The notes beneath the pieces are model-generated. The model saw only the letters and a list, made by a program, of their open reading frames with translations. It ran no database searches and was not told the origin of the DNA. A stretch of DNA of 62,041 nucleotides, counting the filler, from Jimgerdemannia flammicorona (lineage: Eukaryota), in assembly GCA_003990765.1 (NCBI GenBank). It is 3 parts of 3 records of this genome, joined end to end, with 100 filler letters (N's around TTAATTAATTAA, not from the genome) between each part and the next. Parts side by side here need not be neighbours in the genome. Positions count along the whole stretch, not along the records: positions 20,719 to 41,333 come from RBNJ01001634.1; 2 more parts are not named here. One strand, 5' to 3'. Positions 6,236-49,216 of the stretch are shown piece after piece (position 1 is the first letter of the stretch; the number at the start of each line of letters is the position of its first letter). Position numbers and translations under genes: made by a program.

Positions 6236-6599
6236 AATACAAATGCACTTCATTTATTTATTATCTGATTATATGTATTGGATATGTTTTTGTAGATGTA
6301 TGCTTTAGGGCATCTTCTTGGAAGTGCTTTGTTAATTTACAAAATGATTCTTGTTTCCATTATAATCATAGTGATATTGTCTATATAAATTTCTGAAACA
6401 ACTTATACTATATGGAAAAATGTTTCAGTAATTCCTAGATGGACGAGGTGCAGTAGGCACTGAAGTCTGTCACAGACTTCGCAAGCATTGTGGACTGTGA
6501 AGAGTTGGTTTCTGCCATTCCAAAGACAATGGTGTACTTTATTTATAGTGTCTTAGATATGTCTTATGTGTGAAATAGTATGTTCTATAGATATAAATA

Positions 6600-23854: not shown

Positions 23855-24319
23855 TATAACAATTTCACAGTCATATTTAGTCTTAGTACATTTTTCACAT
23901 CTTTTAGTCAGTCTTTTCTTGTTATTTCTTGAATATTCTACTATGTTCCAGCACCTTCTACTTGCTTAGAAACCTTCTCTCAGCACCCAGACACCACTAG
24001 AACATTCTTATCTTTCCTTGGCATCAAGTATCTTATCTCAGCTAGTTATGGAACTTTTTGGAACATTGTAGAATAATATTAGTCAGCTTTGCTGAGAACT
24101 TATTTCTTGGCATTTCTCTTTCTTTCCAAGATTCTTCCAGATCTTTCTTTCAGATCATGTATAAATATCCTTGTTTTTTGCCTGAATAAAGCTCAGAATA
24201 TTTTCTCCCAGAAATCCTTCAAGAATACTTGAACCTTTAAGTATCTCATTGAGCTACTTTAGGCCAACCAGAACTTCCAGATTTAGCTGCTTTCTCTTAA
24301 AGAAACTAGAACCATTACA
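23855..24319 (+). repeat. 5' LTR of chromovirus (465 bp)
   Basis: Direct repeat of 28385-28848. The initial TG has mutated to TA; ends ...ATTACA. Confidence 0.95.
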
Positions 24320-27300: not shown

Positions 27301-28384
27301 TAAACACATGAACAGAACTCTAGAATAAATGCTTAGAAACTATATTTCTTATAAGTAAGATGATTGGGACATCTACCTGACTTATGTAGAGTTTGCATAC
27401 AACAATGCTGTCCAATCATCTACTGGTCTTTCCCCTTTTCAGTTACTCTATGGTCAAGATCCTGAGACCCCTGCAAGTCTATTCTCTTTTAAGAAAATCA
27501 GTCAAATACAAGTCCCAACTACCAAGAACCTTACAGACAAAATGGAAAAACTACTCAAGATTGCTACTGTAAATCTTCAGAAGGCTCAACAGCATCAAGC
27601 CAATTATGCTGACAAGAAATGCTGTGATGTCATCTATACTATTGGAGATCAGTTCTACTGTCTACCAAGAACCTCAAAATACAATCTCAAGTCAACTGCC
27701 CTTTGAAAAAGTTCTACCCCAAGTATATTGGACCTTTTGAGATCACTGAACAAGTCTCTGCATCCTCCTACTGCCTCAAGCTACCTGAAACCATGAGAGT
27801 GCACCCAGTCTTTCATGTGTCACATCTCAAGATCTGGAACCAGTCACTACCCTACCCTGGTTGAATTCCTAAGCCTTCTGCCCTGGTGATTATTGAAGAC
27901 CATATTGAGTATGAAGCTGAGAAAATCCTTAACAAATGAATCCACTACCACTGTCCCAAATACCTAGTCAAATGGATGGGTTATCCTGAATATGATGCTA
28001 CCTGGGAACTACTGGTCAATCTCAAGAACTCTCAAGATCTAGTTCAAGACTTTGAGGCAAAATACATTGTCCAATCTCTATAGTGACTTTCTTGGATTGT
28101 TGATGACCTATAGTAATGACCAGTGCCTTATGCATCAGAAGTTTACTTTGGGACCCTGGAACTAGCAGAACATTTAATGAACAAGAAGTCTACTGAAATG
28201 AAGCTACTAGCTGGGTTCAAACCCCTCCTAGTTGATTAGTCTGGTAATAGGCCCTCTGCCCTATACAAGGATGGCCAATCTCCACCAATATGCCAATTCA
28301 AGTTTGAGAAATTTTGATTAAGTATATCTAGCCTTATGTTACCTAAGAACTCAATGAGGACATTAGTTCTTAAGGAGGGAGGGA

Positions 28385-28848
28385 TGTAATAATTTTACAG
28401 TCATATTTAGTCTTAGTACATTTTTCATGTCTTTTAGTCAGTCTTTTCTTGTCATTTCTTGAATATTCTACTATGTTCCAGCATCTTCTACTTGCTTAGA
28501 AACCTTCTCTCAGTGCCCAGACACTACTAGAACATTCTTGTCTTTCCTTGGTACTAAGTATCTTGTCTCAGCTAGTCATGGAACCTTTGGAACATTGTAG
28601 AATAGTATTAGTCAGCTTTGCTGAGAACTTATTTCTTAGTATTTCTCTTTCTTTCCAAGATCCTTCCAGATCTTTCTTTCAGATTATATATAAATATCCT
28701 TGTTCTCTACCTGAATAAAGCTCAGAATATTTTCTCCCAGAAATCCTTCAAGAACACTTGAACCTTTAAGTATCTCATTGAGCTACTTTAGGCCAACCAG
28801 AACTTCCAGATTTAGCTGCTTCCTCTTAAAGAAACTAGAACCATTACA
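28385..28848 (+). repeat. 3' LTR of chromovirus (464 bp)
   Basis: TGTAAT...ATTACA, preceded by the PPT. Confidence 0.95.
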
Positions 28849-31800
28849 GTAACTGTAGTTGGGAGTTCTGGTCTTTGGAGCCTCTGTCTTTCTTATTAGT
28901 TTAGTAAATAGCACTGATAGCAGTAGTCTCTAGAAGAGTGAAAGACCATTTGGTGTGGACATCTTAGCCGAAAAGCCCTTTCTTAGTGAGTTTCTTTCTT
29001 GGAAATAATGGTGATTGTACTGGATTCTCCTTCTATATTCCAGGGATCATTATCTTCAGGTGGTGTCCAGTGAGAGTTATCTCAGGGAATGAGTTTGGAG
29101 ATCTCTTCTTCCTCAGGCACTTTTTGTTTAGAAACTTCCTGTTTAGGGGTTTCTTCTTCCTCAGATGATTCTTGACCCCAAATTGCTTATACTTCTACAG
29201 CTTCAGCTGCAGGTATCTCTGGAACATGTCTGCATTTCTTCTTCTTTCTTCTGCACTTGGGGCAAGCTGTGCCAGGCGAATTCCTTGTCCCAATGATCTT
29301 GGAGGAGTGCTCAGAGCACTTGTGTCTCTTGAGACAGATAGGGCATCCTTTGATTTCTTCTGCAATGACTCTAATAGTGATGGGGATGGTGTTCTTGACC
29401 CATATATTGTCTTCTGGCCTGTCATCTACCAGGTTGATTCAGGGGTTGAGTCTGAGATCATTTCTATCTTTGGATTCTTCTTCCTCTTCTGTGGTAGACT
29501 CTTCACTGCTGGTATATTCTTCTTAGATAATGACCTTCTTCTTTTTCTTCAATTGCTCATAGCTGGTCACCTTGACCCTATACTTCTTGCCTTGGTAGTC
29601 AAACTTGAATACTTGTTGACTAATATCAACAACTGTATTCATTTCCTTCATCCAGTTGGTGCCAAGGATCATATCATAGATAACAGCTTCAGTGACAATA
29701 GCTTTTGGAATAGAGAACTGAATGTGTCCAAGAGAGATGATGATGGTTCATACTTCTCCCAGGGGTTGAGTCCAGGCTCCATCTGCTACTATAATGCTGA
29801 GATTAGATGGTCCATCAATGGGCTATTGGAGGGTGTCCAGGAATTGTTTGGCAATAACACAGATAGCTGCTCCTGTATCTATGAGGATTTTCGCCTTTTG
29901 TCCTCCAATATCTCCATGTAGGTAGGTACTGACATGTCTTTCTGCAGCTTGTATAGGGGTGGGAGCTGGCTCTTGCTGTAGGATGGGGACTGGACCAGTG
30001 CTAGACATAGTAGTCCTCAGCAATTTGTTTTAGACTCTAGGTGGTGTCAGTTACAGGAACTGTAGAAGAGGGACTTCTATCTTAGCTTCTTGAATCTTCT
30101 GCCAGACTTCATTGTAGATGTCTCTGGGTATGGTCTGGGTGTACTTCTTCTTGGGCTTTGGGGCAGCAGGCTCTCATTCTTCTTGTTTCATTTCTTTATC
30201 CTCTGATGGCAACTCATTTGTCTTAGGAGCAAAGAGTGAGAGAGTCTGGAGAGATGTATCTACTTGCTCCTCCTTGTGTTCTTCATCTTCTTCTTGAATG
30301 ATTCTTCTGCTGGTGTTCCTGGATGGCCTTCCTACAGGTCTCTTCCTTTTCTCTACTGGGTAAACTGTCTTTTGAGTGGTGACTTTGGCTGGGTATAAGT
30401 CTAGGTTACTGTAGTCTTCACTATTGTTTTCTTCAAAATCTTCAACAGAATGAGCTTTAGTCTTCTTGTACTGGGTTTCACTTTTTTGGTTTGATGGTTC
30501 TGAGTTCCTTTAGTCACTTCTTTTATTGTTACATTCAGTGGCATAGTGTCTGAATTGTCCACAGTAAAAGCATTGGACTTGGGCTCTGTCTCTGATAGAG
30601 TATCTTCTTTCTTCTTGCTGGTAATTTCTGTTATCTCTTGGTGGATAACCTTGGTTCCTCTATGGTGGGTATCCTCTGTTATCTTATTGGTAGCTCTGAT
30701 TTTCATATGTAGTGAGTTTTTCAATCTGTCTAACCAATCAGTCCAACTTGGAACTAAGATCTTGGATTTTACTTCTGTTCTTCTTTCCTTTTTTGACTGG
30801 TCTTCTTTCTTTGAATCTTTTCTATTCTTGAAGAAGTCCTTATAGGGCTTTGACCAAAATGTCTTCTTTATCATCCTTTTTGTCATGGTCACTCCAGGTA
30901 GTTTCTTGTCTGATATCAAAGAATCCTTGGACTACATCTACTTGTTCTTCAGACCTTCTGATACCTAGGATGTAGATATGTTGGGCAATGTTCAGGGGAA
31001 TTCCATTCATGAAGGTCATTGGACCTATGATATCTTAATTAGTGGTATTGAACCTGGCTACACATATTCTCTTCTGGATTCTTGTGAAGAATACTCTGGG
31101 TGATTCTCTAAGGTTCATTTTCATCTCTATGATAGATTATTGAGCCTTGTAGTGGGTTTCACTTCCTGCATATTTTTCAATGAGCCAGTGGGCCATGGCT
31201 ATATATTCTAGCTTATAGAATGCTACTGCTTATATTTCTACTACTAGTGCTGAGTGTGGGTCAGTTGCTGTTCAGTGGAAAATTCCTCTAGCTGGTTCTC
31301 TGAGCTAGACCTTGTAGATGGTGATTTTCCTTTCATCTGAGAGATTCCTCAGGGTTGCGATTCCTTCGGAATTCTCTAGGATCTTCTTCTAGATATCTTG
31401 CAAAAGTTGGCAATGGGTTGGCCATTTCACCATCACTTTCTTCTAATTCTGGTTCTGGTTCAGATTCTAATTTGGATTCTGACTCTGATTCACTTTCTGA
31501 ACTATTACTGGAGATGGGGGTGCTTGGGTATCTTGAGAATAGTGTTATAGACCTTGGACAAAGTGGGATAAGTCTAGGTATCCTTGAAGGAGCTACTTCT
31601 AATTCTGCAATGGCTAGTAGTAAAGATTCAATAGGTGAAATTGGTGGGACTGCTGTGGGGTATCTGGCTGCTGAATTTCAGGCTTGTGCAATGAGATCTT
31701 CTAATTCTTGGGCAAGTTCTTCAAAGTCTTCAACAGGACCACCTATATTGTCTGGTTGATCTGGTTGAGGATTTTGGGCTATACTGGTTTCTGATTGGGA

Positions 31801-31970
31801 TCTCTCTGATGCTGGGTAGGTGGTAAGTCTTGAGGTAATTACTTCTCTTCTTGTCCAAATGCTGGAGATGACTGGTTCTCCTGTAGTGGCAGAGATTGGT
31901 GTTGTATCAAATATATCCAGTTTGACTGTGGGTTCTTGTAAGCTAAAAAGTTATATTGATTTTTGAAATC

Positions 31971-31988
31971 TTTCCAGTTGAGCCCCCA
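31971..31988 (-). promoter_or_regulatory. Primer-binding site, tRNA-Pro-like
   Basis: Minus strand reads TGGGGGCTCAACTGGAAA two bases after the LTR's CA end. This resembles the tRNA-Pro PBS TGGGGGCTCG... after CpG decay. Confidence 0.7.
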
Positions 31989-31990
31989 AA

Positions 31991-33177
31991 TGATGCCTGG
32001 CTCAATGGAGGCAAATTACAAGGTGTAGTTTGGCTTGAGCCCCTAGTTACTTTGTTAAAAGCAATAAAATATTCTTAGTGTTTAGTGGTATAATAGTTAA
32101 AGCTGGATATCTGCAAGCGATTTCCTTATTGGGATGGTTCTCTGGGTGTAGCAGTGATTTGTATGTCTTTCCTTCCTGGTCAACGAGTAATTTCTGTATA
32201 GTGTGGTGTTCTCCAAAAGTAGGCAATTTCTGCATAATGATCTTGGTATGATCTCTACAAGTATGCAATTTCTGTATAACAATCTCTTTGTGTAGTACGA
32301 CGATCTCTGTGTAGTATGAGTGGACTTCTTATGTGATTTGGCAGATGACTTGATTTGGGTGCAGGTTCACTGGGAATAGAGGATGGTGTGGATTCTTCCT
32401 GAATTGGCAGCTTACTGGGAATTGTACTGGCAGCAGATTCTTCTCACTGGAAATGGATGAATAACTCAGATGGCATAGATAACTCAGATGACACAGAAGG
32501 CAGATAATTCAATAACTCAGATTCTTGGCAAGTTATGTCAAAGACTAGCTTCGTTTGCACAAATGAATCACTGTGAAGTTACATCTAGTAGACTGACTTG
32601 TGGTAAGGTTCCTTAAGGCTCTCTAGGAATGTGGGTTTCTCTTCAGACTTATCTGGCAAGTGAACCAAAATGTAGTGGACTTCTCTTGAAAATGGTGGCT
32701 TATTCCTTAAGTAGCGAATTACTCAAATGGTGGCAAAGTTCTTCCTTGAACTTGGTGGCAAACTTCAGGCTTATCTGGCAAGCAAACTAAGGCTTTGTAT
32801 CGGAAAGTAGACTGGAGTGGAAAGGGGACCAATGCTCAATCTTTAGAGGCTTCTTTGGTGTTTATATTTCAGACTGAGGTTTATTCACTCTTATCTCTGG
32901 AGTATTTTATACATTGTGGTTACTATCTGGTTACTATGTGGCTAACTATAGATTTGCTATTTGTGGCAAGTTGTGCAGGTCCAGCACAAGTGTGCAGGTC
33001 TGGCACAGGTGTGCAGGTCCAGCACAGGTATGCAGGTCCTACATAGATATACCTTATCTGGTAGTCTGGCTATTTATACAGTTTTCCACAGCAATGATTG
33101 CTGTGTCTGGTTACTATGCTATGTGTTCACATCATCTGGCTAAGTTATAATTCAGGTGATATGTTTTTGGTTTGTCA
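31991..33177 (-). repeat. 5' LTR (about 1.19 kb) of the dUTPase-Gypsy element
   Basis: Bounded by TGA...TCA and adjacent to the PBS. Contains internal 20-nt tandem repeats at 32973-33040. The outer end could alternatively be 33179. Confidence 0.7.
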
Positions 33178-33829
33178 CACTACATCACGAAATTGAGATG
33201 TGGTCTCTAACTATACCCAGAAGTACCCGAAAATCTCCAGTATTTTTCATAATCTGGGCTCCAGGAGTACCTGAACATATCTGGCGATTTGATATAAAAT
33301 CTCCAGAGAATCTCCTGATGTCTCCAGAGAATCTCCTGATGTCTTCACGAACCTTCAGCACAATTTACTCATATATCCAGAGATGGCATTTTCATCATAG
33401 ATATCTCCCAGAGCATTGAGATATACAAAGATGCTTTTATTGACAAATAATTTTGTAGTATATTTTTTATTGAATGCCAACCAAAATAAATTACAATTCA
33501 TCATCCAAAACAAATATCCGCAGAATAGCAACAATGAAGAATAATCCACATGGTGATAATGAACATGTGGAATGGACAATAGATGGGACAAAGTGTGGCA
33601 ATGAAATATAAACTGCTGAGTGGCCAGATGATATACTAATGAGTGACAATAGATGAAGAATGGACAATGAGCAACAATGGTGATGAAATCAACAATGAAT
33701 GGAATTGCTCAGCAATAATAGAATAGACAATGATCAACAACAGACTCCTATTTTTTTTTTTTTTTTTTTTTTTTTAACTAAAGATTGTCAAAAACATACC
33801 ATGACCAGCAACAAGATATCATAGGTGAG

Positions 33830-34415
33830 AGAAATGGGCATATCAATGAGTTCAGAGAGTCAATAAGTTCGGGGCAGATAGCGTCAATGAGTTCAGGGCA
33901 GATGGGTATTGTCAATGAGTTCAATGAGTTCAGGTGGATAGGCATGGCGATGATAATAATGATGACAACAGAGACACCAGAAGAAATATCAATAGATAGA
34001 CCAGACGATGACAAGACCCACAACAAATTAAAAGGAAATAGGTATACCTGGAAACAGGCCAATTCAACATGAGAGAAATGGGCATGTCGATGAGTTTGGG
34101 GCAGATGGTATCGATGAGTTCATGGAAGATAGTGTCAATGAGTTTGGGCAGATGACATCGATGAGTTTGGGGTAGATGGCGTCGATGAGTTCGGGGCAGA
34201 TGGCGTTGATAAGTTTGGGGCAGATGACGTTGATGAGTTTGGGGCAGATGAACACATTGATGAGTTCAATGAGTTTGGGATGAGTTCGATACTGGACAAA
34301 TTAAAAAGAAATAGGCATAGGCCAATTTGATGTGAGAGAAATAAGCATGTCAATGGGTTTGGATAGTCAATGAGTTCAGGTAGTCAATGAGTTTGGGTAG
34401 TCAATGAGTTCCAGG
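33830..34415 (+). repeat. Approximately 24-nt minisatellite (gtcgatgagtttggggcagatg-like)
   Basis: Many diverged copies; a larger sub-block (gagagaaatgggcat..caaattaaaaggaaatagg) is also repeated. Confidence 0.85.
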
Positions 34416-34499
34416 TAGGTAAAGACAACACACATACCAGATGATAGCGACGAGATGACCCCAGATAATGGCGATGAGCCTGTTCATCTGAATTCATCC

Positions 34500-35851
34500 C
34501 TATTTCCTGTATCCTTCTCCACAAGATTGATCCATAAGCAACAGCGCATCAAACTTAACCCCTCCTGCCTCATCTTCCTTGTGCCTCTGCACTACCATCC
34601 CTCTGCTCCTTTCCTTTATCTGGTTGCAGAGATACCCCACATTAGCAACATGCAACAAAGTGGCCATGCTGGGTGGCTGGCCCACCTCATGGTACCTGTC
34701 TGGGTTCTTGTGAGTGAGATTGATGAGAACGTGAATTGTAGCCTTGAGACAGGATATGGCTGTTAGAGGGGGGATGTAGTTGTGGGAGTTTAATGTAAAG
34801 AAAAAAAAAACAGATATACTTGATAAATAGTAAATCATATGTACTGGCTGCATTGTCCGAATTATCATTGTATGCCTCAACTGTGACGTGCTCAGGATCA
34901 GAGGTTTTCAAGCAAAAGTGTGAAAGGTAAATGGTATACAATGCTTTCTACCAATCTTGACAGAACAACAAGAAGTTGAGCAGCCTCCGAAACAGCCCCT
35001 CGATCACCGCAACCTCCATTGTATTCGCAACATGCTGCATCAACAATGTCTCAAGGATCAATAGGCAGTGTTTCAAGAGTGCAAAATTGACTAGAGCTGA
35101 CTCGATGATAAGTGCCTATATAAACATCCAGTCAGTTAAAATCAATCATAACTCCCACTCGCAAACCACCTCATTGTATGTTCCATATGCCCAAACTACA
35201 TACCTCACCACTCTCATAGCCTTTAACCTTGCCAGCATGTATTTTGCAGCATCAAGCAGGCTCTTGACAACTCATCACAGACTGCCTGCAGTCCGCAGCT
35301 TGTCCTTGGCAAAATCCTCATACTGCGTGTAATGGCGAACAGAGAGTGGATGCCCATACACTTGACCATGATCTGTGAAGTATACATGACAATCAGCTTG
35401 ATGCCATTTTGGGCTGTACTGGATTCTGATGCGATGCGATGCGACTTCTTACCTCGACATTACCATCGAAGAGCATTGAGGAAGAGACGATCTTCTTTAT
35501 GTCTTCAACCTATTTCAAATAATAATTAAATAAAATAAAATAAAATATAGACACATACATTAACCCTCACTCATAACCAAATACCAAATGTCAACCTACG
35601 CTACACACCCCACCCCACCCTCATCCTCACCAAGAACCGATCACCCTTCTTCTTTATGACTCTAGCCATGTCATGTAAGCATAATAGATCTATGGTCTCA
35701 ATGTCCAGGAACTCATCCTCCATCATCAGCAGCTCCATGTTGCATTTGTCCTGCACCAGCACCACAATCATAAAGGCCAGGCAGCAACGGATAATCTGTG
35801 GGAGCAGAGGGTGACAATTATTCTTGGGATTAGATTCAGCAGGCCATTGGG

Positions 35852-35884
<33 letters not shown>

Positions 35885-36490
35885 AGATGAGGCATGAATG
35901 AGATAAGTGGTACTTACCAGGTCATTCTCAATGTGCAGACCCTGGTAAATACGAGGGATGAAGTTGTGCATGTGGAGCTTCATTATGAACTCGGTGTTGA
36001 GTAGCTTCCATGCCAAATCAATGTAGCTGTCATAATTGCCAATCCAAATTTGTCAATAAAATTCGTACATTAATTCCAAGAAAATGATAGCCCCCAAAAT
36101 GTACTAATACAGCACTCTTTTTGATGTTCCCTCACCTATCTCCCTTCTCTACAAACAAAACTGCACCAATGCATCTTGACTGCTTGATATTAATTCCCTG
36201 GTTCTCATACAGGCCGTTGAGAATGTACTCCATCTCGTCTGAGAACTGCTTATACTCACCAGCCTCCTACAGCTCGTGCATGCTCTTGAGGTCTTTCTTC
36301 TTCCCCACAACCTGCAGGAGAGGAGACGCAAAAAAGAGACAATGGATGTCAGTGCTTCACTCGATTATGCAGATAGTAAAGCCATCTACTCAAATTATAA
36401 TGTAACCCTTGACCAGCAAACTCATCCCCCAACCCTATGCCTCTCTGTTAATCCTATCACATCCATGGCCTCATCCTCATCTGTGTCCTC
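34500..36490 (-). pseudogene. Multi-exon WAPL-domain (cohesin release factor Wapl/Wpl1/Rad61) gene fragment
   Basis: Exons translate KSMHEL*EAGEYKQFSDEMEYILNGL / YIDLAWKLLNTEFIMKLHMHNFIPRIY / IIRCCLAFMIVVLVQDK / VEDIKKIV / AISCLKATIHVLINLTHKNP / KFDALLL..INLVE. These match WAPL motifs as I know them (HELxEAGE..FxDExEY; VLxNLT; FD..LINLVE). GT-AG introns, stops and frameshifts are present. Confidence 0.8.
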
Positions 36491-36586
36491 AGCAACATCC
36501 TCAAAAAAGAGGCAATGGTCCTTAGTACCAAAATCAAAGTAGTAGACAGTGGGGACACTGCCAAGGATGTCATTCGAGTTGGACAT
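36491..36586 (-). pseudogene. Glutathione S-transferase N-terminal fragment (start codon and first about 31 codons) fused to the WAPL exons
   Basis: MSNSNDILGSVPTVYYFDFGTK-..LFFEDV resembles the fungal GST N-terminus (PTxxYFDFxxxGRGExxRLxxED) with the GRGE segment deleted. TATA-like TATATAAA about 65 nt upstream. Confidence 0.6.
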
Positions 36587-37326
36587 ATTGTGTTTTGTGG
36601 TGTGAAGGGATGTTTGCTGATGAGTTTTGGAATGCGAGAAGGGGAATTTTATATATAATTATGATTTTCATTGATAAACATGTGAGGTGTTTCCACCAAG
36701 ATCATCATATAAAATCAACCTGAACTTGACCTGTAACCTGTAACATGCCCAACCTAGAGGAGCCCAATATAGAGGACCTACTCATGAAGTGATTTCAGCA
36801 TCTTGTTGGTAACAATCTCATCAGTGCAAATCTCATTGTGGGAATCTTGCTGGGAGAACTTGGCTGTTAATCTTGAAGAGATCTTAGTCGAGAGTATGAA
36901 TCTCACTGGGGCATTTGCGATATAGTGTACAAAGTGGCCATCCAAGTGATTTGAGTAGTTTTTATTATAGAGTGTGGGCTTCCTCAGCTTTGGCAATCTC
37001 AGCATGGGAAAGAGTATATTGGTTGGGAAAGAGTGTGATGGCCAAGTTGCAAACCAAGACAATTAATTTAGAGCTTTATGACAGATTTATTCACATTCAC
37101 TCATTCACATTTTTGCATTTATGTATTACATTTACACATTTATGCATTACATTTACATATTTATGCATTATATTTACATTCACAAATTCACATATATGCA
37201 CAGAAATATCAGATAACTAATAGAATTTTGGCAGGCTGTATGGATGTATTTGGACATATGTGGACTACTAGTATAGCTGTCTGCAGGTAACATGATATGC
37301 AGTATGGACCTAATAGTCATTGATGC

Positions 37327-39026
37327 CTACCAATCTGACTTTTCATCTTCATCCATTGGGATATCCAGGTCCATGCTAATTTCCTTAGTCCTCTGTACCT
37401 CAGACAAAACCATTGTATAGAAGTCTTGAAGATTCAACTGGCCAGCATCAATATGTTTTTCAATCTGTTTTTCATAGTTTTGATAAATTTTGCCATAGTT
37501 CACAGAAAGGAAGCTCTCCTTAATATCTTTGCAAATATGATAAAGCTAATACAAAAAATATATATATATGTCTGATGAGTTTATAAATATTCAAAGATAA
37601 AAATAACTAAAGAAAACAAAACTGGACATACTAGAGTACAGACAAATGCAATCTGAGGGATTGTAAACTTATCTACAAGAATCTTATTCCACTCAGTATA
37701 ATCTTCCAGAAATAGCACACGGAGGGTGTTTCGAATATATGGCCCAGTGAATGGATTCTTTGGCTCCTGGATGAATACTGGTTTACTCTGATCATCCTTT
37801 ATAATGTCTCCATTGACATTATAGTCAAAAACAGGTAGCTCCCAGATGAACTGGTCATTGATCCAGAGATCAGCTAAAGCCTTTGAACATGATTCCTTAA
37901 CCTCGGAATCACTAATAGATCCAGTAGAGTCAAACTTGCAGTCAACAAAAATACATGCTAGATAATTTTGGACATGTTCTTTGGACTTCCCATGGGTCTG
38001 AGAATGTTCATGATCATACTGTAAATTTAAAGTATTTTTAATAGACTGAAATATCTTTAGATAGGATTAGGCTAACTCAGATATGATATTTACTTTGGAA
38101 ATGAGATCCTTAACATCATTAACATGAGGATATTTTTGGATTACCAAATCTACCATCTGTGTTTATTCCTCACATGAAGGAAAGGCATCAACAAAGAGGG
38201 TAAAGTATTGAATATCCAGGATAGCACATTTAAGCTGCTTGGGGCTCATTCCATGCTTCTGACAGATATTATGGTTGACCTCGGCATCTGTTCTTCAAGA
38301 TTTCCTATATGGAGAGTTCCTGTGTAAATTTATACTAAATATCAAAAAATTATAATTATTAATATTTCAGCATCATCACACCTAGTGGTGCAGATTATAG
38401 ACACGTGCAACTCCATAGAAATATTAAGAAAATTACAAAACATACCCAATTTTTTTTTCGAATATACTGACATGAAGAGGAACAGGATCTAATTCTTCTG
38501 CATCATTATCCTCATCCTAAAATTCTGTATCTTGAGCTGTGCAATCCTGAGCTTCCTCATCTTGAACATCTTGCTGTCTATAGTTATCTTCACTACTTTC
38601 AATAATATTTTGAGCAGGTTGTTGGATTCCAAGGTCATCTTCATCACTATCAATGATTTGGTGAGAAGGTCTGGTGGTCTTCTGGTACTTGAACTGTGGC
38701 TCAATTTCTTCTTGCTGTCCAGAGCTATCCTTGTTATTCTCAATGGTTTGGTGAGAAGATCCAGTAGTATTTTGGTGCTTTTGCTTAATAGTTTGTTGCT
38801 GGTGAGATCTAGTGATCTTTTGGCTGGTAATTGTGCTGATCTTTGGCTGGATGACCTTTGGGCTGTTGACCTTTGGATTACTCTTTGGCTCAACAGTATA
38901 TTCATCTCTATCAGCAAGATGCTTAGTATTTTCTTTTCTACAAGCAGTCTTGCATAATCCCTGAATCTTATTGAAAATCTTTTGATCGTCTGATTTGAGA
39001 TCCTTTACATTCTTGCATTGGCCCAT
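37327..39026 (-). pseudogene. Multi-exon transposon accessory gene (DUF6532-like), divergent from the transposase
   Basis: Low-complexity Q/D/E N-terminal exon, then YFTLFVDAFPS.., PFTGPYIRNTLRVLFL.., FTIPQIAFVCTL|LYHICK..DW*. Short GT-AG introns and some stops. Family assigned by motif resemblance only. Confidence 0.55.
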
Positions 39027-39084
39027 CTTGTGCAGTCCCTGAACCTTGTTGGATCATCCAATTAGGGGTGTTGGCTCACTTTTT

Positions 39085-40145
39085 CAGTATGTTGAGTGTG
39101 GTATGCAGAAAAGAGAAGTTACTAAATGTCCAATGTGTGGAGTGGCATGCAGTGTACAGTATCTGATATATAGTATATGGGTGTGGTATTGTGGCATACA
39201 GTATGCAGAAATGAGAAGCTGCTCACCTTCCAATATGTGTAGCATGTGGTGTGCAGTGTGCAGTGTATAGAAAAGATGAACTGCTTATGTCTTATGTATG
39301 CAGTGTGGGGTGCAGGGTATGGCATGTGGTGTATAGTATGCAGTGTGTAAGAATTATGTTTTGTGTCATGCAGAAAAGAGAAGCTGCAAAGTTGCAAGGT
39401 AGGTAGGTGGTTATAAGATACATCATTTATGAAAGCTGCCATGAAATGTGAGCTTAAGAAATAAAATTGATCTCCATCATCACACATAGGTGAGAAAATA
39501 AGCTCCATCATTTAACCATAAAAAATACAAGTAAGCTAAATGATGCAATTACCACCACAGGTCATCAGATATGAGCAGCTCCATGCTGCATACCAAACTC
39601 ATTGGACATAAGCTCAGACCACATGCCACACACATCAGACTTTTGCTTTTGTATACTACACTCATCGAACATAAGCCTGCACACAACACACAACCACACT
39701 CATCAGATATAAGCAGCTCCTCTTTTCTGCATGCCATACACCACATACATTGGACATTCATTTCTGTATACCACACTCATATAAGCAGCTCTCCTTTTCT
39801 GCATGCCACATACTGCACACCACACACATTGAACATGAGCAGCTCCTCTTTTCTATACATCATATACATCAGACATTCATTTCTGTATACTGTACACCAC
39901 ACTCATCAGACGTAAGCAGCTCCTCTTTTCTGCACACCATATGCCACACACCGCACACCATACACATCGAACGTGAGCAGCTCCTCTTTTCTGACATATA
40001 TTGGACGTGAGCAGCCCCTTTTTTCTGCACATATATCACATACATTGGATGTGAACAGCTCCTTTTTTCTGCACACCACATATTACACACATTGGATGTG
40101 AGCAGCTCCTCTTTTCTAGCTCCTCTACGAGTAGCTTCTCTTTTT
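39085..40145. repeat. Minisatellite arrays in opposite orientations between the two divergent transposon genes
   Basis: gcagaaaagagaagctgc-type units at 39085-39390. Reverse-complement units tgagcagctcctcttttctgc at 39570-40145. Confidence 0.8.
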
Positions 40146-40180
40146 TGCCACATTCTATATACCATACTGCACGAACAACT

Positions 40181-40363
40181 ATGACTCATCACAAGTCTGG
40201 AAACAGACTTGAATGTCATATTTGCCACAGAGTATTCAAATCGGCCTCAGGGCTGACCCAGCACAACAATAGCCAATATCGCCACATCTCCAGAAGTCCA
40301 AGTTCTCTTCTGATTGATGACAGTATAAATCTCAAAACATTACAGGTGAATTCTGCTTCTACA

Positions 40364-40410
<47 letters not shown>

Positions 40411-41333
40411 AATTGGAGTACCTCCAGATGTTATAAACCTCTTGCCACAATTACCAATTGATGGCAGTGAAATTCCTGCTGCAACTGCTGCAATTGGTGA
40501 TTCTGAACACAATTTCAAGCATGATTCCAAGCACAATTATGAGCATGATTCTGATTCTGAACACGGTTCCAAGCATGATTTCGAGCATGATTCCGAGCAC
40601 AATTCCAAGCACAATTCCGAGTACGATTCTGAGCACAATGAGCACAATTCTGAGTATGATTCTGAGTATGATTCTGAGTATAATTCTGAGTATAATTCTG
40701 AGCATGATTCCAAGTATGACTCCGATGGTGATGCAAGCTCTGAGATAGAATCTGTAGATATTGACCAAGGATTTGTGAGTCTCCCAGATCTGATAGTACA
40801 TGGTGACATTTTACCACATCATCAGGCTGGCTACATATATCAAACAGAAGGTTCTGCATCTCCAGTTTTCGAAATTCAGAAAACTCGACATGAACAGGAT
40901 GGACATCCATATCATCCCTGGTTGAATGAAGATGAGCTCTGGCTTACCGACTTTTTGTTTTCAAAGTCCAAAATGTCGATGAAAGCTGCTGACTATTTAC
41001 TGGATGGATTTAAATACCAGAGAATAGTAATGTCTGGTCTATCTTTTAATACAAGTAGACAGATGTTAGAGCGCATTTATCAAGCACTATTTATTCAGGT
41101 AGAGTGATTGATAGTTATTGAAGTATATTTGTTAATTGTATATTATAATTATTGAGTATTAATTACTATAATTACATTTTAATCTGTTTTAGAAATTCTC
41201 TCATATAGTTATTACTGTAAAACATAATTCCGAGTCTTGGAGTGGAGACTATATTTTATGGTATCAAAATCCTCTGAATATTATCCAGAGCCTCTTCAGC
41301 AATCCTATATTCAAAGAACAAATGGTATATACT
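40181..41333 (+). CDS. Plavaka-family transposase, 5' part (exons 40181-41098 and 41193 to the gap)
   Basis: N-terminal C2H2-like finger CHICHRVFKSASGLTQH, poly-Ala and acidic 12-nt repeats. Then PYHPWLNEDELWLTDFLF..MS..AADYLL..SFNTSRQML, an intron (41099-41192), and LWYQNPLNIIQSLFSNPIFKEQMVY, all typical of Plavaka transposases. Confidence 0.8.
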
Positions 41334-41433
41334 NNNNNNNNNNNNNNNNNNNNNNNNNNNNNNNNNNNNNNNNNNNNTTAATTAATTAANNNNNNNNNNN
41401 NNNNNNNNNNNNNNNNNNNNNNNNNNNNNNNNN
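41334..41433. other. Assembly gap with artificial TTAATTAATTAA linker
   Basis: 100-nt N run with the linker at 41378-41389. Confidence 0.95.
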
Positions 41434-41987
41434 CCCTAACCAATCCCTCTAGGCCCCCCCCCCTACCCCTACCCGATGAAGGGCCACTTTGTCCAACACT
41501 ATCTCCACCCTTCCACCACTCTGTTCACAGATCCTTGCTACCAAGCCATGATGTTGCCCCCTCTGAGGGCCCCAACCCACCCACCATCCAGTCAGCAGAT
41601 CTCTCAACAACTCCTCCCACCATAATACCTTCTTCTGTAGTCTCATCTGCCTCCTCTCCTCAAATACAAAAAGCCAATGTCTAGCTAGGCCCACCCATAC
41701 TGCTAATACCCACCCTACAGTGAGCCAACTATCACCTACACCACCCACTAGCCAAGATCTCAAGTCTTCCCAGCGACCACCCTCACCTGCCAGCCTCTAC
41801 TCCACACCCAGCCTATTCTCTATTTCTATCCAAAAGTCCCCCAAAACCTCACACTCTCCCAACCAGTGTTCTGGTGTCTGTATAAGTCCCCCAGCTTGCC
41901 CAACATTGTAATACTCCTCACAATCTAAATGGCCACCATCTACCAGATGCCTAGTACAGTAATTCAACATGACATTCCTCTACAGCA
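41434..41987 (-). mobile_element. LINE ORF2 C-terminal fragment
   Basis: RNVMLNYC..DCEE..QTPEHWLGECEV..GWVLAVWVGLARHWLFVFE; homologous to 42076-42630. Confidence 0.85.
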
Positions 41988-44900
41988 TTTTTTTTTTTTT
42001 TTTTTTTTTTTTTATAGTCCCTTGGACTCCATCTTTATTACCAGTCTATGAATAAGTATACAATATCACCACCCACTAACCGATCCCCATCGGGGGGCCC
42101 CACCCCACCTCTTCACGTATAAAGACCACCCTCTCACCAATAACTCCAACTCTCCCACCACTCTGATCACAGATTTTCACCACCAAGCGGTGCCTCTGCC
42201 CCCCCTGCAGCCCCCAACCAAGCCACCAGCCTGTCAAGGTATCCTCCATAAGGAACTGCCACCTTGCTAACTGGCACCCCAAGCTCTGTTGCTCCTCCTC
42301 CTCAAATACAAATAGCCAGTAGCCAGCCAGCCCAACCCAAATAGCCAACACCCAGCCTAGCGTAATCCACTCTTCCCCTACCCCTCCTATCAATCGATCC
42401 CTCAGGTCCTCCCACCTCCCCTGTACATCATCACCCCTACGCCTTACCCCCAATCGGTCCCCAATGGCCTGCCAAAAGTCTCTCAACACCTCACACTCCC
42501 TTAGCCAATGTTCTGGCATCTGTACCTATCCGCCTTCCTGCCCTACATTATGGCACTCCTCACAGTCAAAGCAGCCCCTGACAACAAGATGTCCTGAGCA
42601 GAAGTTAAGCATCACATTCCTCCTCAGTACACACCACCAGACTATCCAGTACTTTGGCGGCATCCAATTCTTCACTGCGGCACTCCAGGTCCAAACCCCA
42701 TGCCAGTCCCACTCCTCACCAATTCCAACTCCTTGCCAACCACTAGGCCACAGATCCTGGCCTGGTCCCCTTTGGTATTTGATGCCATCATGAATGTTGA
42801 ACTCCAGTAAAGGCATGCCTCCCAGAAGAATGCTATTCCATCTCCACATCACCGAGCCCCAAGCCCTCTCCCCCTCATCCCCTCGCCAGCGAATACCAAT
42901 GCGGTATGCCCCCTCAGCTATACCCCACCAGAAGCCTTTATATCTCAGTTGCGCAGTGTTCTGAAGCCCAACTAATGAAAGAAGATCACCAGTCAAGCCT
43001 CTAGATGATGTCCTCCTCTCCCATATCTTCTGCAGCAAGAGGACCCAGCCCCCTCCATGCAACTCCACCGCCCTCCTCAGCCACCAAGCCCGCAAGCAGT
43101 GTAGTCTTTTGGGGAAGTCCACCAGCCCAAGACCACCTCTTGCCACCAGTAGGGACAGAGTCTCCCAACCAATCTGACTCCGTCTGCCAGCCCAAATCCA
43201 TCCCTTGGCCACCTTCACCAATCTCTTCACCATCCAGGCTGGGAAGTCCAGATGATAGGCCAAATACCACAGCTTCGGCAGCCAGTAAACATTCAAAATC
43301 GAGATCCTTCCTGCCAGAGAGAAGTGTCTACCCCCCCAACCCCGCAGGTCCTCCTCCCAAATTCCAATCCTCTGCTCCCACCACAGCCTGAGCAAAACAG
43401 CCCCATAGACTGACAAATAGATGCCCAAGTACCGCACTGCCTCTCCAGTGGGGACAATTGTTCCAATAACTTCTCCACCCACCAAGCCATTGCCCAGCAC
43501 CATTGTTTCACACTTGTGCCAATTCAGCTTTGCCCCAGAGTTCGCCTCATACCACTCCACTGTCTTCTGTAGCTCCTCGACATCCGCAGTCACTCCCAAA
43601 CCAACTACCATGTCGTCTGCAAAGGCTCCAACCTTCCAGCCAACTCCATAGATAGAGAGCCCCACAATCCTCTGCCAAATCCTATCCATGAGAGGTTCCA
43701 AGGAAAGGGCATACAAAATGGGGGACAGTGGGTCCCCCTGGGGCACTCCCCTACCCAGAGGGAAAGCCACCCCTCAATGCCCATTGCACACGAGTGCAGC
43801 CCTACTCCTTTCCAGTAGGCTGACCATTGCCGACCGAAATGGGGCCGGAACTCCAATTCTATCTAATACTTTCGCCAGCCAGACTTGCTGCACCCGGTCA
43901 TAAGCCTTCTCCTGATCCAAGAAGACAAGATGCCCATCTAGTCCATAGGCTTGAGCATCTTCAATAACTCCATGTACCCAGGCCATGCCATCTCTAATGA
44001 GCCGACCCCCTATGAAGCCCCTCTGTTCAACACCCACAATTTGCTGGGCCACCTTCTGTAGCCTTGCGACCACCACCTTAGTCACCAACTTCCTGTCCAT
44101 ATCTAGCAACATTATCAGCCGCCAGTTCTTCCAATCCTCTCACCTTCCCTTGTTCTTATAAAGCAGCATCACCAGCCCAAGGTCTTGCTCCCCCACCCAT
44201 CTCCCTGACTGTAATATAGAGTCACACAGTGCTGTCAACTCCCCCAATATGCCTGGGACCCCAACCATTCGCTTCCAGAAATCCCAGGGGAGGCCATCCT
44301 CCCCAGGTGCCATACCCGAGGCTGTCGCAGCAAGAACCTGGTGGATCTCATCCTCCTTTACAGGCATCACCAGGTCACCTAGTCCTTTAGCTTGTGGTGG
44401 GTGCCAATCTTCTAATGTTTGGTCAATGGCTGTAGCATCCGCCCCACCCTCCTCCTCACTCCACAATCCACTCCATTGCGCCTTCAGCATTCCAAGGATG
44501 TCCTGTACACCATGCACTAGTACATCATCCGAGTCAAGTACCCCTTCCCACCGCTGCTGTACCCTTCTTGCTCAAAGTGTCCTTGTGAGAAACTTGGAAG
44601 GCCTCTCCCCTTCCTCCACCCCCTGCCAACAGCCGTGCCACCAGGCCTTGCACCCTTGACTCTTCCTCTTCCCACAGCACCTGTTGCAGTTCCCCAACCT
44701 CCATCCTCACCCTCATTATTCTCCAATCTTCTTCTCCCTCCACTGCAGCCAGTCTCGCCCACTCCTCCAGGAGCCTAGCCAATCTAGTAGAAGCCCAATG
44801 CACTTTCTGCCTTCGCTGCTTCCCAGCCACTCTGCCAACCTCGCTCCAATACATCCTGGCCATCTCTTTCAACCTCATCCACCGAACCCCAATTGCGGCC

Positions 44901-47880
44901 CCTTCCTGCCGCCAATTCGCCACCTTCAGCTGAATGTCATTCGCCCACTCCTCCCACCGGACCTCATCACCCAACAAGGAGGAATTCAGGCACCAATATC
45001 CAGGCCCATCTCTACTTCCCCCAAAACACCCCTGTCCTAAGAGGCCCCAGTGATCTGACCATGGACACCATTCTATCTCTATCACCTTCCAGACATCGTG
45101 GCCCCAACAGTCGGCCATCAGAATCCAGTCAATCCTTGTCCCCAGACCTCCAGCCCAATGCGTATATACCCTCCTGTCCCCCCAGTGCTCCCTACCTGCA
45201 TCCACCAGTGCTCCTAGCCTTTCAACCTCCTCCCACGTCGCTAACCCCCCACTCCTGCTCTCCGCACCCCATCCTCCATCAGTTCTATCCAGCCGTACAT
45301 CTCAAACCATATTGAAATCTCCTCCAAGCATATCCAACCCAGCTTCAGCAAGGATCCCACTCTCCAGGAGCCCTTTCACCCAATCCACATGCTTCCCCCG
45401 CACCGCAGGGCAGTAACAGGAGCCAACTGTGACCGGCTCCCAACCTGCTCGAATCCACTCACCCCAGACCAGTCTCTCCCCCCAGCTCCTCACATCCTTT
45501 ATCTCCCCTCTGCCTTTCCGAACCAGAATCCCAACCTTGCTGTTCCAAATCGCCATACCACCCCATTCCTTAGTCTATTCCATCCTATCAGCATCATCCT
45601 CGCACCTGACATCCTGCAAGAGGAAGAGATCGGCCTCCAATCCCTTCAACCAAAGAAAAATGTTCCTGCATCTAACTGTACCCCTTAGCCCATTCATGTT
45701 CAAAGAAAAAATATTGGTTGTACTGTTCATAATAAAATATGGTTTGTTCTCAATCAATCTCTACTGCTCCATGCCCCTCTCCTCCTGTGCTGTGTCCAGA
45801 TTATGTTCAGCCATCACCTCCTCCTCTTCAGCCCTCTGCGCCTCCAGTCCAGCCAACAGCTCATTCATCTCCTCATCAGCCTTCTCCTCAAACTCCTCTC
45901 GGTACTCAATGCAAGCCTCCTGCCAAAGCTGCAACCCATAACACCTGTTCCAACAGTACTCAGCCTTCTCCCCAGTGACCACCACCAACTCCACCTCCCT
46001 CTCCTTATCCACCTCATTCCCTTCCTCCTCCAGATACACCGCGAGAATTTCCGCCTTCAGCGCCATCGCCACTCCTTCCCCCTGCAAAATTCTCGTCCAG
46101 TGCTCGTCACCCATCCCACGCAAGTCCACCTCCCCCAGCTCTTCTGCTGCCAGGTTATTCATCATCTGGCACATCCAAAGTAGGTTCCCCACCTCCTTTC
46201 CACCAGGGGTTGCCAGCCTCCCTCCATCCAGCATCATGGTGTCCGCTCCTGCACTCGCATCCTCATCCCACACCTCTGGGACATCCACCAGTTCCTCCTC
46301 CCCTGCTGCCACTACTCGGTCCCCATCCAACACCTCCGGAATGCTGAATTTCACCTTCTGGGTTCCCAGCATCATCACATCCTCCCCAGGCTTGTTCCTG
46401 GAAGCCGGGCCCCGCCTGATTAGAGGGGAAGGGGTGGGGGAGTTCTCTCAGCCATCATCCCAAATCTCCAAGGTGCCGTCAGTATATAGGTCTCTAATCT
46501 CCACCTCCTTAGCCTTCCCTGACCCTGCCCCTTCGTTCCCACTCCTCTCACCAGCCCAGACACTCGCTTCGGCCCCTTCTGTGCCCATCTTCATGCTCGC
46601 AACCTTCTGTTGTCTGCCCCCCAGCTTGGCCAGCAAATCCTTCTGCCTCTTCCGCCCCTGAGCCCTTTCCCACTGCACCTTGTCCACTCGAATCCTCTTT
46701 CCATCCACCACCTCCAAGAGCGTTGACTCCTCAAAAGTCTTCCAGGCCTTAGCTCGCCATTCCACAGCCCCATCCAGCTCCTCCAGCGCTTCCAATAAAT
46801 CTTCCTCCTCTTCTTTACTTCCTTTCACCCGCATCACCTTGCACAGGAAAGCCCCCCAGACCAACACTGAAGGCCAGTCCCTTGTCTTCCCGGTAGCCAC
46901 TTTCCCAGCCAGCTGAATCCTCACATCCACATCCCCAGTCCTGAGCATGGTCCCTTCCCAGACCCTGAATCCGATATCCACCACCTCTCTATACTCCACC
47001 ATGACATCCTCTACTCTCTTCCTCATCTCCATTGCTGTCACCATGGGTACTCCTTTCACCAGCAGTTGGACCACCCTTGGATCCCATTTCAAACACCTCG
47101 CCATCGGAACATATATCTCCCCAACCACTAACCCAACCTTCAGCGCCTCCTCCAGCGGTTCCACCTCCTCAAATCCCACCTCCACCCCCTCCAGTCCCTT
47201 CAGAAACTTCACCGAAGCCGCTCCGGTCACCTGCTTAGCGATAAGCCCCAACACCATTTTTGCCATCACTGCTAAGCCCCGGAAGCACAGCATGACTGCG
47301 AATGCCGAGATTGACTTCTTGAGTAATGGAGCCACCGCCAGTCCTGTTACACCATCTGCCAGGTCCCCAGGCCTCGTGCCCTTCCCACTGCTCAGCTCAC
47401 CATCAGCAGTCCCATCTAGATTTTTTTCCAGATCACCCATCACACCCCCATCAGCAGTCCCCACCCCAGCTGCTACCCCCCCAGCTCCACTCCTATGGCC
47501 CTCCAGAGAGGCACCCCCAAGAGGTTGCTGCCTGGAAGCCGCCACCAGTACCTTCCCCCCTCTCAGCCAGCTCTCCAGTCCAGCTCCCTGCCAACCCCCC
47601 TTCACCTTCTCCACAAAGCTCACCCTGCCAGACCCTTGACCTCCAGCTCTGCCCCCTCCTCCACCACGGCCCCCTGCCAGCAGGCCCCTCATACTTCCCC
47701 CCAAGTCGGGGCCTCTTCCCACTTGCTGCCATTCAAATGCTCCAGGGTCACCCTGCCCAGTACGTACCTTCGGATACTCATTGGTTACCATGATACTAGT
47801 AGCTTTTCTCCAGAAACTGTGTCGAAAGTGTTGCCAAAGGGTTGTGTAACCTGAATGTTACCAGAGAAAGATGCCTATGA
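41988..47880 (-). mobile_element. Near full-length L1/Tx1-clade LINE (ORF1 47791-45761; ORF2 45757-42076: APE-RT-C-terminal Cys/His region) with poly(A)
   Basis: APE: SLNMNGL, LLQD, GGDFN, RIDW, SDH. RT: APGEDGLP, FLDQEKAYDRV, GVPQGDPLSP, FADD, YLGI, GGLGL. Poly(T) at 41988-42013. ORF1 has one in-frame TGA at 46448; ORF2 has a few stops and frameshifts. Confidence 0.92.
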
Positions 47881-49216
47881 CTTTGATGGACACCTCAGCT
47901 GTCTCTACCTCTTCCATCTGACTCTTGGCCATCTCTATCCTTTCTTCTTCCTCCACTTTCAAGCTCTGGAGGACTGTCTGTAAGTGCTCCCAGTTCGCCC
48001 TCCACCACTTCTTCCTCCTCCCATCCATCGGAATCCAGATCCAATCCTTGGCAAACTCCTCCCATCTCCTCTTCCACACTTCCTTCGCAGCCTCCCTCTC
48101 CTCTAGGGCAATCAGCAGTTCCTCCTCCTCCTGTTCCGAGCCCTTCCTTCTCCACACTTTGCACTCCTGTCCTTCGACACGAATCACCTCTGACCAGTCC
48201 CTCCCTAGCCCTGTAGCCTCCTTGCCTTCCAGCCTCACCATTACCTCACAGTTGCTATTCCTCAGCTTGGTCCCCTCCCAGAATATGAACCCAAAGTTGA
48301 CCATCTCACCAAAGCCCCCCAGCACCTCCACTACAATCCCTTAAGTCTCCTGTCTTCTCAATGTCAGCAGCCCCTCAATCACCAGGTGTACGGTATATAG
48401 ATTCCACCTCAGGCACCTCACCATACCCACCTTGATATTCTTGATGACCAGCCCTTTCTTCAAGGCTTTCACCATATCCTCCTCCTCCACAAATCCTATC
48501 TCTATCATCTCTACCAATGGGATGAACTTCAGCGACTCTGCCCCAGCAACCTCCTCTTCCACTAGCTGCAAGACCTCCCTAGCAGACATTTCCAGCCCCA
48601 GGAAATTTCCCAAGATAGCCCATGTTGACACCAACTTGTGAAAGAAGAGGTGCACCACTAGTTCACCAGAGCCTGCTGCTATCATAGCCTTCTTCTTATT
48701 CTCAGATACTCCAGCAGTCACCCCAGTCACAGGCCCAGTCCCAGGAATACCAGTCTCAGCTACACCACTTCTGGACCCCTGACCCCTGGCAGACACCTGA
48801 CCAGTCACCTGACCAGTCACCTGGCTGGTCACCTGACTTCTATCCCTGTCAACACTACATCTCCCCTGCCCTACTCCCATGGGCCTAGTAGCTGCCCTTC
48901 TGCCCCACATCACTGTGTGCTAATTTCAATACCAGCCTACCTTGCTTGACCACCCACTCCTCCTGCTCCAGCACCAGTCCCAGCTGCTGCTGCAAAACTC
49001 TTGGGGAGGCCCAGGCCAGGCCTCCTTCTCTCCAAGCACTCCGAGCTTGATGAATCCTGGGTTGCCATTTGATAAAACTCATTGTAGACTATTACTAGAC
49101 TCCTGCTGCACCTTATATACCAATATAAATGAAGTGAAAACTTGAAAATGTGTTGCTTTTCATGAAAAGATGTCTGTGTGACTTAGCTTGCTCTGAATGG
49201 TTTGAGCAAAAGAAGT
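47881..49216 (-). mobile_element. 5' end and ORF1 portion of a second LINE subfamily
   Basis: Homologous to 56231-57610 on the opposite strand, including the shared 5' terminus acttcttttgctcaaaccatt. Confidence 0.85.

What the first reader, a model, noticed from the sequence alone, without database searches (positions are those of the whole stretch)
33178..41333. Putative 'Pack-Plavaka': fungal CACTA-like transposon carrying captured host gene fragments
Seen in sequence: CACTACA plus subterminal-like repeats, minisatellites, intron-containing WAPL and GST fragments, an accessory gene and a Plavaka transposase, all in one contiguous block with similar CpG decay. Known: gene-fragment capture is established for plant Pack-MULEs, Pack-CACTAs and Helitrons; I am not aware of it being well described for Plavaka elements. 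Inference: the host fragments are cargo of this element. Retained introns imply DNA-level capture, not retroposition.
Basis: partly seen in the sequence, partly recalled or inferred. Interest (0 to 1): 0.75.

Follow-up and report, generated by a model that had tools for sequence, protein, structure and literature searches.

The report
Fungal Plavaka transposon carrying host-gene fragments
A now-dead jumping gene in a soil fungus picked up first a piece of a detoxification (GST) gene and then a 2-kb intron-containing piece of the chromosome-cohesion gene WAPL and copied them around the genome, and the stolen WAPL piece differs from the fungus's own WAPL in a way that suggests it came from a related lineage or was once kept useful.

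Summary
Real cargo, wrong terminus. The block is the left 8.2 kb of a ~12-kb PlavakaB DNA transposon (14-bp TIR CATCACGAAATTGA starting at 33183, 2-bp TSD, PF18759 transposase, DUF6532-like accessory gene). CACTACA at 33178 is an accident: LTR end + 3 bases + TIR start; 1 of 12 copies has it. The 'gap' is a contig join; the right end lies on other contigs. The WAPL piece (34480-36492, 8 introns) copies the intact gene on C11494 and sits, with identical junctions and indels, in at least 9 copies. A sister subfamily (4 contigs) carries a three-exon GST piece and no WAPL, so GST came first and WAPL replaced most of it, in frame. All copies are CpG-decayed pseudogenes. Unexpected: cargo differs from resident WAPL at 34/183 synonymous and 70/659 intron sites but 8/711 replacement sites, too few for a neutral ride; donor was a diverged WAPL (sister lineage, allele, lost paralog) or the fusion was selected. 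GST donor not found. Fungal transduplication and Plavaka accessory genes are known; serial genomic capture by Plavaka was not found in my searches, nor earlier in this scan. New variant, interest 0.55.

The parts
32519..33179 (.). LTR of a neighbouring Gypsy-type retrotransposon (not part of the element); its terminal CA supplies the first two letters of the apparent CACTACA
   Evidence: other LTR copies end at 33179; RVT_1 in the nested retroelement at 25411
33181..33182 (+). TA, expected left copy of the 2-bp target-site duplication (inferred; right-hand partner of this copy not identified)
   Evidence: 2-bp TSD shown for five other insertions
33183..33196 (+). left terminal inverted repeat, CATCACGAAATTGA (14 bp perfect with the right end)
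33197..33420 (+). subterminal region with short TCTCCAG-type repeats (21-bp tandem at 33300-33344); similar CTGGAGA repeats line the right end on C6451
33825..34418 (+). 24/17-bp minisatellite backbone, shared with the GST-only subfamily
34480..36492 (-). captured WAPL genomic fragment = C11494:~4810-6826; exons at 36492-36458, 36311-36175, 36026-35918, 35795-35619, 35509-35453, 35372-35204, 35115-34956, 34880-34845, 34759-34480; 8 introns kept; pseudogene
36493..36586 (-). GST stub: ATG at 36586 plus about 31 codons, fused in frame to the end of WAPL exon 1; remnant of a three-exon GST cargo kept in the sister subfamily
36706..37012 (.). backbone stretch bordering the cargo slot, conserved in all three subfamilies (promoter role is a guess)
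37327..39026 (-). spliced accessory gene, DUF6532-like, with stops
   Evidence: Pfam DUF6532 E 0.11; Atlas first hit DUF6532 0.97 with low recognition, 167 features; coordinates
39087..40137 (.). repeat arrays in inverted orientation between the divergent accessory and transposase genes
   Evidence: D3, D6, I1-I4
40181..41333 (+). 5' part of the Plavaka transposase gene (C2H2-like finger, poly-Ala, acidic repeat, start of PF18759), cut by the contig end; the rest and the right TIR are on C6451 (93.5% identical over the overlap)
41334..41433 (.). spacer between two contigs (N44-TTAATTAATTAA-N44), not a gap inside the element

Best explanation
A PlavakaB cut-and-paste transposon of about 12 kb with a cargo slot between its left minisatellite and a conserved stretch at about 36,700. 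Shown: an older lineage (B) holds in that slot the 5' three exons of a fungal GST gene with leader and introns; a derived lineage (A, the window's) has most of that GST replaced by 2.0 kb of genomic WAPL, fused in frame after GST codon ~31; this single chimera was then copied with the transposase and accessory gene to at least 9 places and silenced by CpG methylation. Inferred: capture was DNA-level template switching during repair of a break in the element (GST and WAPL share CGAGGACG at the 5' junction, with a short duplicated filler); the cargo is a passenger, dead before the copies spread (two frameshifts shared by all copies). Inferred, about even odds: the WAPL template was not the direct ancestor of today's resident gene but a diverged WAPL (sister lineage followed by introgression or horizontal transfer of the loaded element, or a divergent allele or lost paralog).
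For: Termini CATCA..TGATG in 12 left and 11 right ends; 2-bp TSD from 4 empty-site reconstructions out of 19 x 15 flank pairs, two of them for WAPL-bearing copies, plus intact C4474; PF18759 E 2.7e-30 and 1.3e-21; C6451 links WAPL cargo, accessory gene, transposase and right TIR on one contig, C1066 does so for the GST cargo. 10 other contigs carry the WAPL cargo at 88-93% (24 of 24 candidates scored); 9 of 9 copies that span it share the GST/WAPL junction; shared indels 7/7 to 9/9 including 10- and 11-bp exon deletions. Resident WAPL: open spliced frame, GT-AG introns, CpG o/e 1.17; 30-50% of its CpG sites are mutated in each copy. A forms a 99-100% supported clade in three noncoding trees and sits inside B in two of them (weaker 95/93). 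Divergence pattern.
Against: The window copy's own right end and TSD were not identified. C3115 has two TIR-like ends without a 2-bp duplication. The GST donor is not in the assembly as far as searched, so GST capture rests on homology (58-61% to a Jimgerdemannia GST) and intron retention only. The junction microhomology is read from CpG-decayed copies. The foreign-donor step has no direct support: no sister-lineage WAPL sequence was available (one search gave one 67% relative).
Confidence: 0.85

Rival explanations
1. The GST-WAPL fusion was an expressed accessory gene kept under purifying selection on the active element (a truncated cohesin-release factor), and broke only shortly before the copies spread.
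For: In-frame fusion to a kept ATG; all 16 splice sites intact in the least decayed copies; fixed differences 34 synonymous to 8 replacement against 64 to 93 in copy-private changes, Fisher p 4e-6; the A stem is long enough (0.046-0.084 in noncoding backbone); selection on captured fragments was reported in 9 of 24 testable cases (PMC3597677, section 11).
Against: Two frameshifts fixed in all copies, the first about 180 residues into the WAPL part; the C-terminal WAPL exons are missing; cargo-branch amino-acid changes are not rarer before the frameshift (5/180 against 10/210, p 0.44); a diverged donor gives the same pattern without new function.
Confidence: 0.17
2. Plain vertical capture from the resident gene's ancestor, then neutral decay; the low replacement count comes from rate differences between active genes and methylated repeats or from small numbers.
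For: Only one intact WAPL was found in G000; fixed differences lean towards G/C in the resident gene, so gene-specific GC bias could inflate intron and synonymous distances; the most conservative version of the test gives P = 0.011 only.
Against: With a transversion clock 25-30 replacement changes are expected on the cargo branch, 8 are seen in total (P <= 1e-4); the outgroup puts 5 amino-acid changes on the resident branch; the neutral pre-spread phase looks short (7 of 28 first-position CpGs lost).
Confidence: 0.3
3. The block is a true CACTA/EnSpm element starting at 33178 with a TGTAGTG right end and 3-bp TSD, as first read.
For: CACTACA is present at 33178; Plavaka is placed in or beside EnSpm/CACTA (PMC12730594; bioRxiv 2025.02.11.637652, passages).
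Against: 11 of 12 copies lack CACTA before the shared start; right ends read TGATG; TSD is 2 bp.
Confidence: 0.02
4. WAPL and GST pieces are an ordinary segmental duplication or pseudogene into or beside which a Plavaka inserted.
For: Repeat-rich, nested region.
Against: Cargo lies inside the TIRs in copies with unrelated flanks, with identical junctions; flanking genes of resident WAPL are not carried.
Confidence: 0.02

Closest known systems
PlavakaB DNA transposons, CMCT clade (Kojima 2025, PMC12730594; passages and a supplement search seen)
   Same: 5'-CATCA..TGATG-3' termini, 2-bp TSD, PF18759 transposase with C(2)C and H(3)H motifs, extra gene(s) inside
   Different: Described there from Agaricomycotina, with TET/JBP as passenger; here a Mucoromycota-type (Endogonales-like by nearest proteins) host, a DUF6532-like accessory gene and two pseudogenic host fragments; no Jimgerdemannia, Endogone, Rhizophagus or Mucor entry in the one supplement file searched
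Giant red-algal Plavaka with PAG1-3 accessory genes (bioRxiv 10.1101/2025.02.11.637652; passages seen)
   Same: Plavaka carrying non-transposase genes and tandem-repeat arrays
   Different: PAGs are long-kept transposon genes; here the cargo is a traceable piece of a housekeeping gene with its introns
Fungal transduplication: histone H3 in hAT elements (PMC3538342, PMC6710886; passages seen)
   Same: Housekeeping-gene sequence captured by a TIR transposon that keeps its transposase, amplified, then inactivated; original intact
   Different: There a processed (intron-less) copy in hAT, decayed by RIP; here genomic DNA with 8 introns, two successive captures, CpG decay
Pack-MULE / Pack-CACTA (Pack-TYPE) of plants (PMC8903248 search listing; PMC13317346 passages)
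   Same: Intron-containing host fragments from more than one gene joined between TIRs, chimeric reading frame
   Different: Pack-TYPE elements are non-autonomous; this element carried transposase and accessory gene. The Pack-CACTA model (aberrant excision of tandem elements) does not fit a replacement inside an earlier cargo as well as template switching does (inference)

Membership tests
PlavakaB | Plavaka transposase (PF18759) | tested here: met
   E 2.7e-30 and 1.3e-21 on C6451, E 2.5e-4 for the cut window exon
PlavakaB | termini 5'-CATCA..TGATG-3' | tested here: met
   definition from PMC12730594
PlavakaB | 2- or 3-bp TSD | tested here: met
   CT, AG, AT, GT by empty site, GG in intact C4474; C3115 shows none
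PlavakaB | C(2)C and H(3-4)H motifs between second D and E | tested here: met
   CPIC and HILQH read in the C6451 translation; by eye, no alignment to references
PlavakaB | transposase groups with PlavakaB in a tree | not tested
   no reference transposases were fetched
EnSpm/CACTA in the strict sense | CACTA/CAC termini and 3-bp TSD | tested here: not met
TET+ Plavaka | TET/JBP dioxygenase gene inside the element | tested here: inconclusive
   no such Pfam hit in six read-through frames of 34400-36700 and 37250-39100, minus strand; divergent TETs may escape Pfam
Pack-TYPE (Pack-MULE, Pack-CACTA) | host gene fragments with introns between TIRs | tested here: met
Pack-TYPE (Pack-MULE, Pack-CACTA) | non-autonomous, no transposase | tested here: not met
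   transposase gene present in cargo-bearing copies, now broken
Transduplication (TIR element with captured host sequence, amplified) | intact donor elsewhere in the genome | tested here: met
   WAPL on C11494; not met for GST
Transduplication (TIR element with captured host sequence, amplified) | several copies with the same junctions and unrelated flanks | tested here: met

The most novel reading that the evidence does not exclude
The element expressed a spliced GST-WAPL fusion from its cargo slot and kept it under purifying selection for most of its history: a transposon-borne, truncated cohesin-release factor that could act on host chromatin, lost only shortly before the last burst of copies.
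Probability: 0.17. Interest if true: 0.8.

Novelty: new variant of a known kind. Interest (0 to 1): 0.55.

Why it matters
It extends genomic-DNA gene capture to the Plavaka lineage and to an early-diverging fungus, with the order of two captures, the junctions and a donor all visible, which is rarely the case. The cargo also works as a dated fossil of a single-copy host gene: if it matches a sister lineage it marks transposon passage between fungal species far more cleanly than transposase trees can; if it matches none, a transposon kept a cohesin regulator under selection. As it stands all copies are dead and no effect on the host is shown.

Tried and rejected
CACTA terminus and TGTAGTG right end: rejected. 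Closing the 'gap': it is a contig spacer. GST donor in G000: DNA search gave only element copies (11 of 11 candidates); protein searches gave C10799 (40-43%, lacks one cargo intron) and C13227 (no intron match, only 33-50-bp DNA matches); neither is the donor. C15999, C9829, C14296 turned out to be decayed element pieces. Word-index search with the GST alignment found nothing. WAPL search gave one relative among 208 candidates, so no close outgroup. Sequencing runs for the resident WAPL region: 3 listed, no RNA holder listed, one small-share soil run; no reads were laid, so they are no evidence on expression or on a sister lineage. Payload of subfamily C and the inside of C3115: no Pfam hit in 12 read-through frames. 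CpG gain/loss asymmetry and position of amino-acid changes did not separate 'diverged donor' from 'selected cargo'. Scan notes: nothing by sequence or by words.
Full report
Setting. The window is three contigs joined by N44-TTAATTAATTAA-N44 spacers. The finding lies on G000:C1634 (window 20719-41333), so the sequence stops at a contig end. G000 is a 231-Mb fungal assembly in 35,354 contigs; the nearest named proteins are from Endogone and Jimgerdemannia, so Endogonales is likely.

The ends. A search with 33100-33800 gave two sets of hits: one ending near query base 80 (an LTR ending at 33179) and one starting at base 81-84 (40 of 1218 candidates scored). In 12 of 12 loci examined the second set starts at CATCACGAAATTGAG (one decayed variant) with unrelated bases in front; only the window copy has CACTA there. 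So CACTACA is LTR end + CTA + the first two bases of the element. Contig C6451 matches 35676-41333 at 93.5% and runs on through the rest of the transposase to ...TCAATTTCGTGATG: a 14-bp TIR, element length about 12.0 kb. Eleven right ends were read. Joining 19 left to 15 right flanks and looking for empty sites in the repeats at hand gave 4 pairs, each with a 2-base duplication (CT, AG, AT, GT); a 1.5-kb deleted copy on C4474 has both ends and GG/GG. C3115 has two TIR-like ends without such a duplication and may not be one element. The transposase hits PF18759 (E 2.7e-30, 1.3e-21). Kojima 2025 (PMC12730594, passages) defines PlavakaB by CATCA..TGATG and 2-3-bp TSDs. The element is a PlavakaB. 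The accessory gene (37327-39026, minus) is DUF6532-like on weak evidence (Pfam E 0.11; Atlas 0.97 with low recognition).

The WAPL cargo. 34400-37300 matches 10 other contigs at 88-93% and one, C11494, at 77% over the WAPL part only (24 of 24 candidates scored). C11494 holds the resident gene: a 642-codon first exon, GT-AG introns, no stop in the spliced frame, CpG o/e 1.17, gene neighbours, cut at the contig end. It is the top and only intact-looking PF07814 locus among 15 candidates. The cargo runs from the last codons of exon 1 to the end of exon 9 with all 8 introns, so capture was from DNA. Nine of nine copies that span the 5' junction share it and all share the same indels, among them 10- and 11-bp exon deletions (7 of 7): one capture, dead as a full frame before it spread, then at least 9 copies, each with 30-50% of the resident gene's CpG sites mutated.

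Order of capture. Four contigs (C1066, C6028, C6817, C21591; 75-84% to the window's backbone) have no WAPL; in the same slot they carry leader, ATG and three exons of a GST (GST_N_2 E 3.9e-6), and C1066 links this to transposase and right end. The window keeps the same leader, ATG (36586) and about 31 codons, then WAPL in frame. The WAPL-bearing copies form a 99-100% supported clade in three noncoding trees, nested among the others in two. GST came first; WAPL replaced most of it. GST and WAPL share CGAGGACG at the junction with a short duplicated filler (read through CpG decay), which fits template switching during break repair; that step is inference. More distant copies (C511, C278, C7926, C794, C646) hold a third, unidentified, splice-site-bearing sequence in the slot, so the slot has changed content at least twice. 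The GST donor was not found in G000; the best relative is a Jimgerdemannia GST at 58-61% to the decayed copies.

The unexpected part. At sites that are CpG in neither sequence, the state shared by the copies differs from resident WAPL at 34 of 183 synonymous, 70 of 659 intron and 8 of 711 replacement sites, while single copies differ from that state by about 0.02. Copy-private changes are 64 synonymous to 93 replacement (Fisher p 4e-6 against 34 to 8; copies are not independent). An Endogone outgroup places 5 of the fixed amino-acid differences (CpG sites included) on the resident branch. If the resident gene's ancestor had been the donor and the cargo had ridden neutrally, 25-30 replacement changes are expected (transversion clock, P <= 1e-4), or 17 under the most cautious setting (P 0.011). 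So most of the divergence arose under purifying selection. Backbone transversion distance between the two subfamilies (23 of 1623) equals the cargo-to-resident intron distance (10 of 659). That fits a split of host lineages, capture in the sister lineage and return of the loaded element, which would also explain the missing GST donor; it fits equally capture at the birth of the subfamily followed by selection on the fusion. CpG asymmetry and the position of changes did not separate these. My odds: diverged donor (sister lineage, allele or lost paralog) about 0.5, rate artefact 0.3, selected fusion 0.17. No read-level evidence on expression or on relatives was obtained.

Against what is known. 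Gene capture by TIR elements is known in fungi: histone H3 in hAT (PMC3538342, PMC6710886, passages; an intron-less copy in the latter), and by Helitrons (PMC4289320, listing only). Plavaka elements carry TET/JBP genes (PMC12730594) and PAG1-3 (bioRxiv 2025.02.11.637652, passages). Plant Pack-TYPE elements are non-autonomous (PMC8903248, listing; PMC13317346, passages). Selection on captured fragments has precedent (PMC3597677, abstract and section 11). Searches listed no paper on genomic host-fragment capture by Plavaka; the library lacks most subscription journals, Repbase was not available, and bioRxiv supplements were not seen. The original Plavaka description (Iyer and others, recalled) was seen only as cited. 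This scan's notes show nothing alike by sequence or words.

Verdict. Observation partly confirmed; interpretation largely right with a wrong terminus. It works like a Pack element but is an autonomous-type PlavakaB with serial cargo: a new variant of a known kind, interest 0.55.

Noticed in passing
G000:C511, C278, C7926, C794, C646, C14296 (L119:4700-5700, L122:2700-3600): A third subfamily with the same TIR holds a different, unidentified sequence with splice sites in the cargo slot; several copies keep their CpGs (o/e about 1). No Pfam hit.
   Followed up: partly
G000:C4474:8267-9748 (L108): 1.5-kb internally deleted, non-autonomous copy with both TIRs and GG duplication; C16667/C23966 repeat it with the same flanks.
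   Followed up: yes
G000:C3115:11561-14492 (L118): 2.9 kb between two TIR-like ends, CpG-rich inside, no 2-bp duplication, no Pfam hit.
   Followed up: partly
window 23857-24319 and 28387-28848: LTR pair (94% alike) of a Gypsy-type element nested in another LTR retrotransposon; CpG almost absent from 21,000 to 32,000.
   Followed up: no
window 41434-48900 and 53900-56200: Decayed LINE-like elements (RVT_1 hit at 42529-43773); related LINEs interrupt many Plavaka copies.
   Followed up: no
window 4362-5621 (+): Intact-looking 419-aa frame with a RING finger (PF13445 E 3e-11).
   Followed up: no
L024:1000-2530 (-), beside resident WAPL: A divergently oriented gene whose translation looks like a Hen1-type small-RNA methyltransferase (by eye, name recalled, not tested).
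   Followed up: no
G000 GST genes C10799, C13227: Two intact paralogs of the cargo's GST family; the gene closest to the cargo (protein P0008) has no close match in G000.
   Followed up: partly
L028:2294-2830 (C6817) and L119 near 4100-4300 (C511): A ~500-bp palindromic, MITE-like insertion inside the GST cargo of one copy; similar sequence sits in other copies.
   Followed up: no
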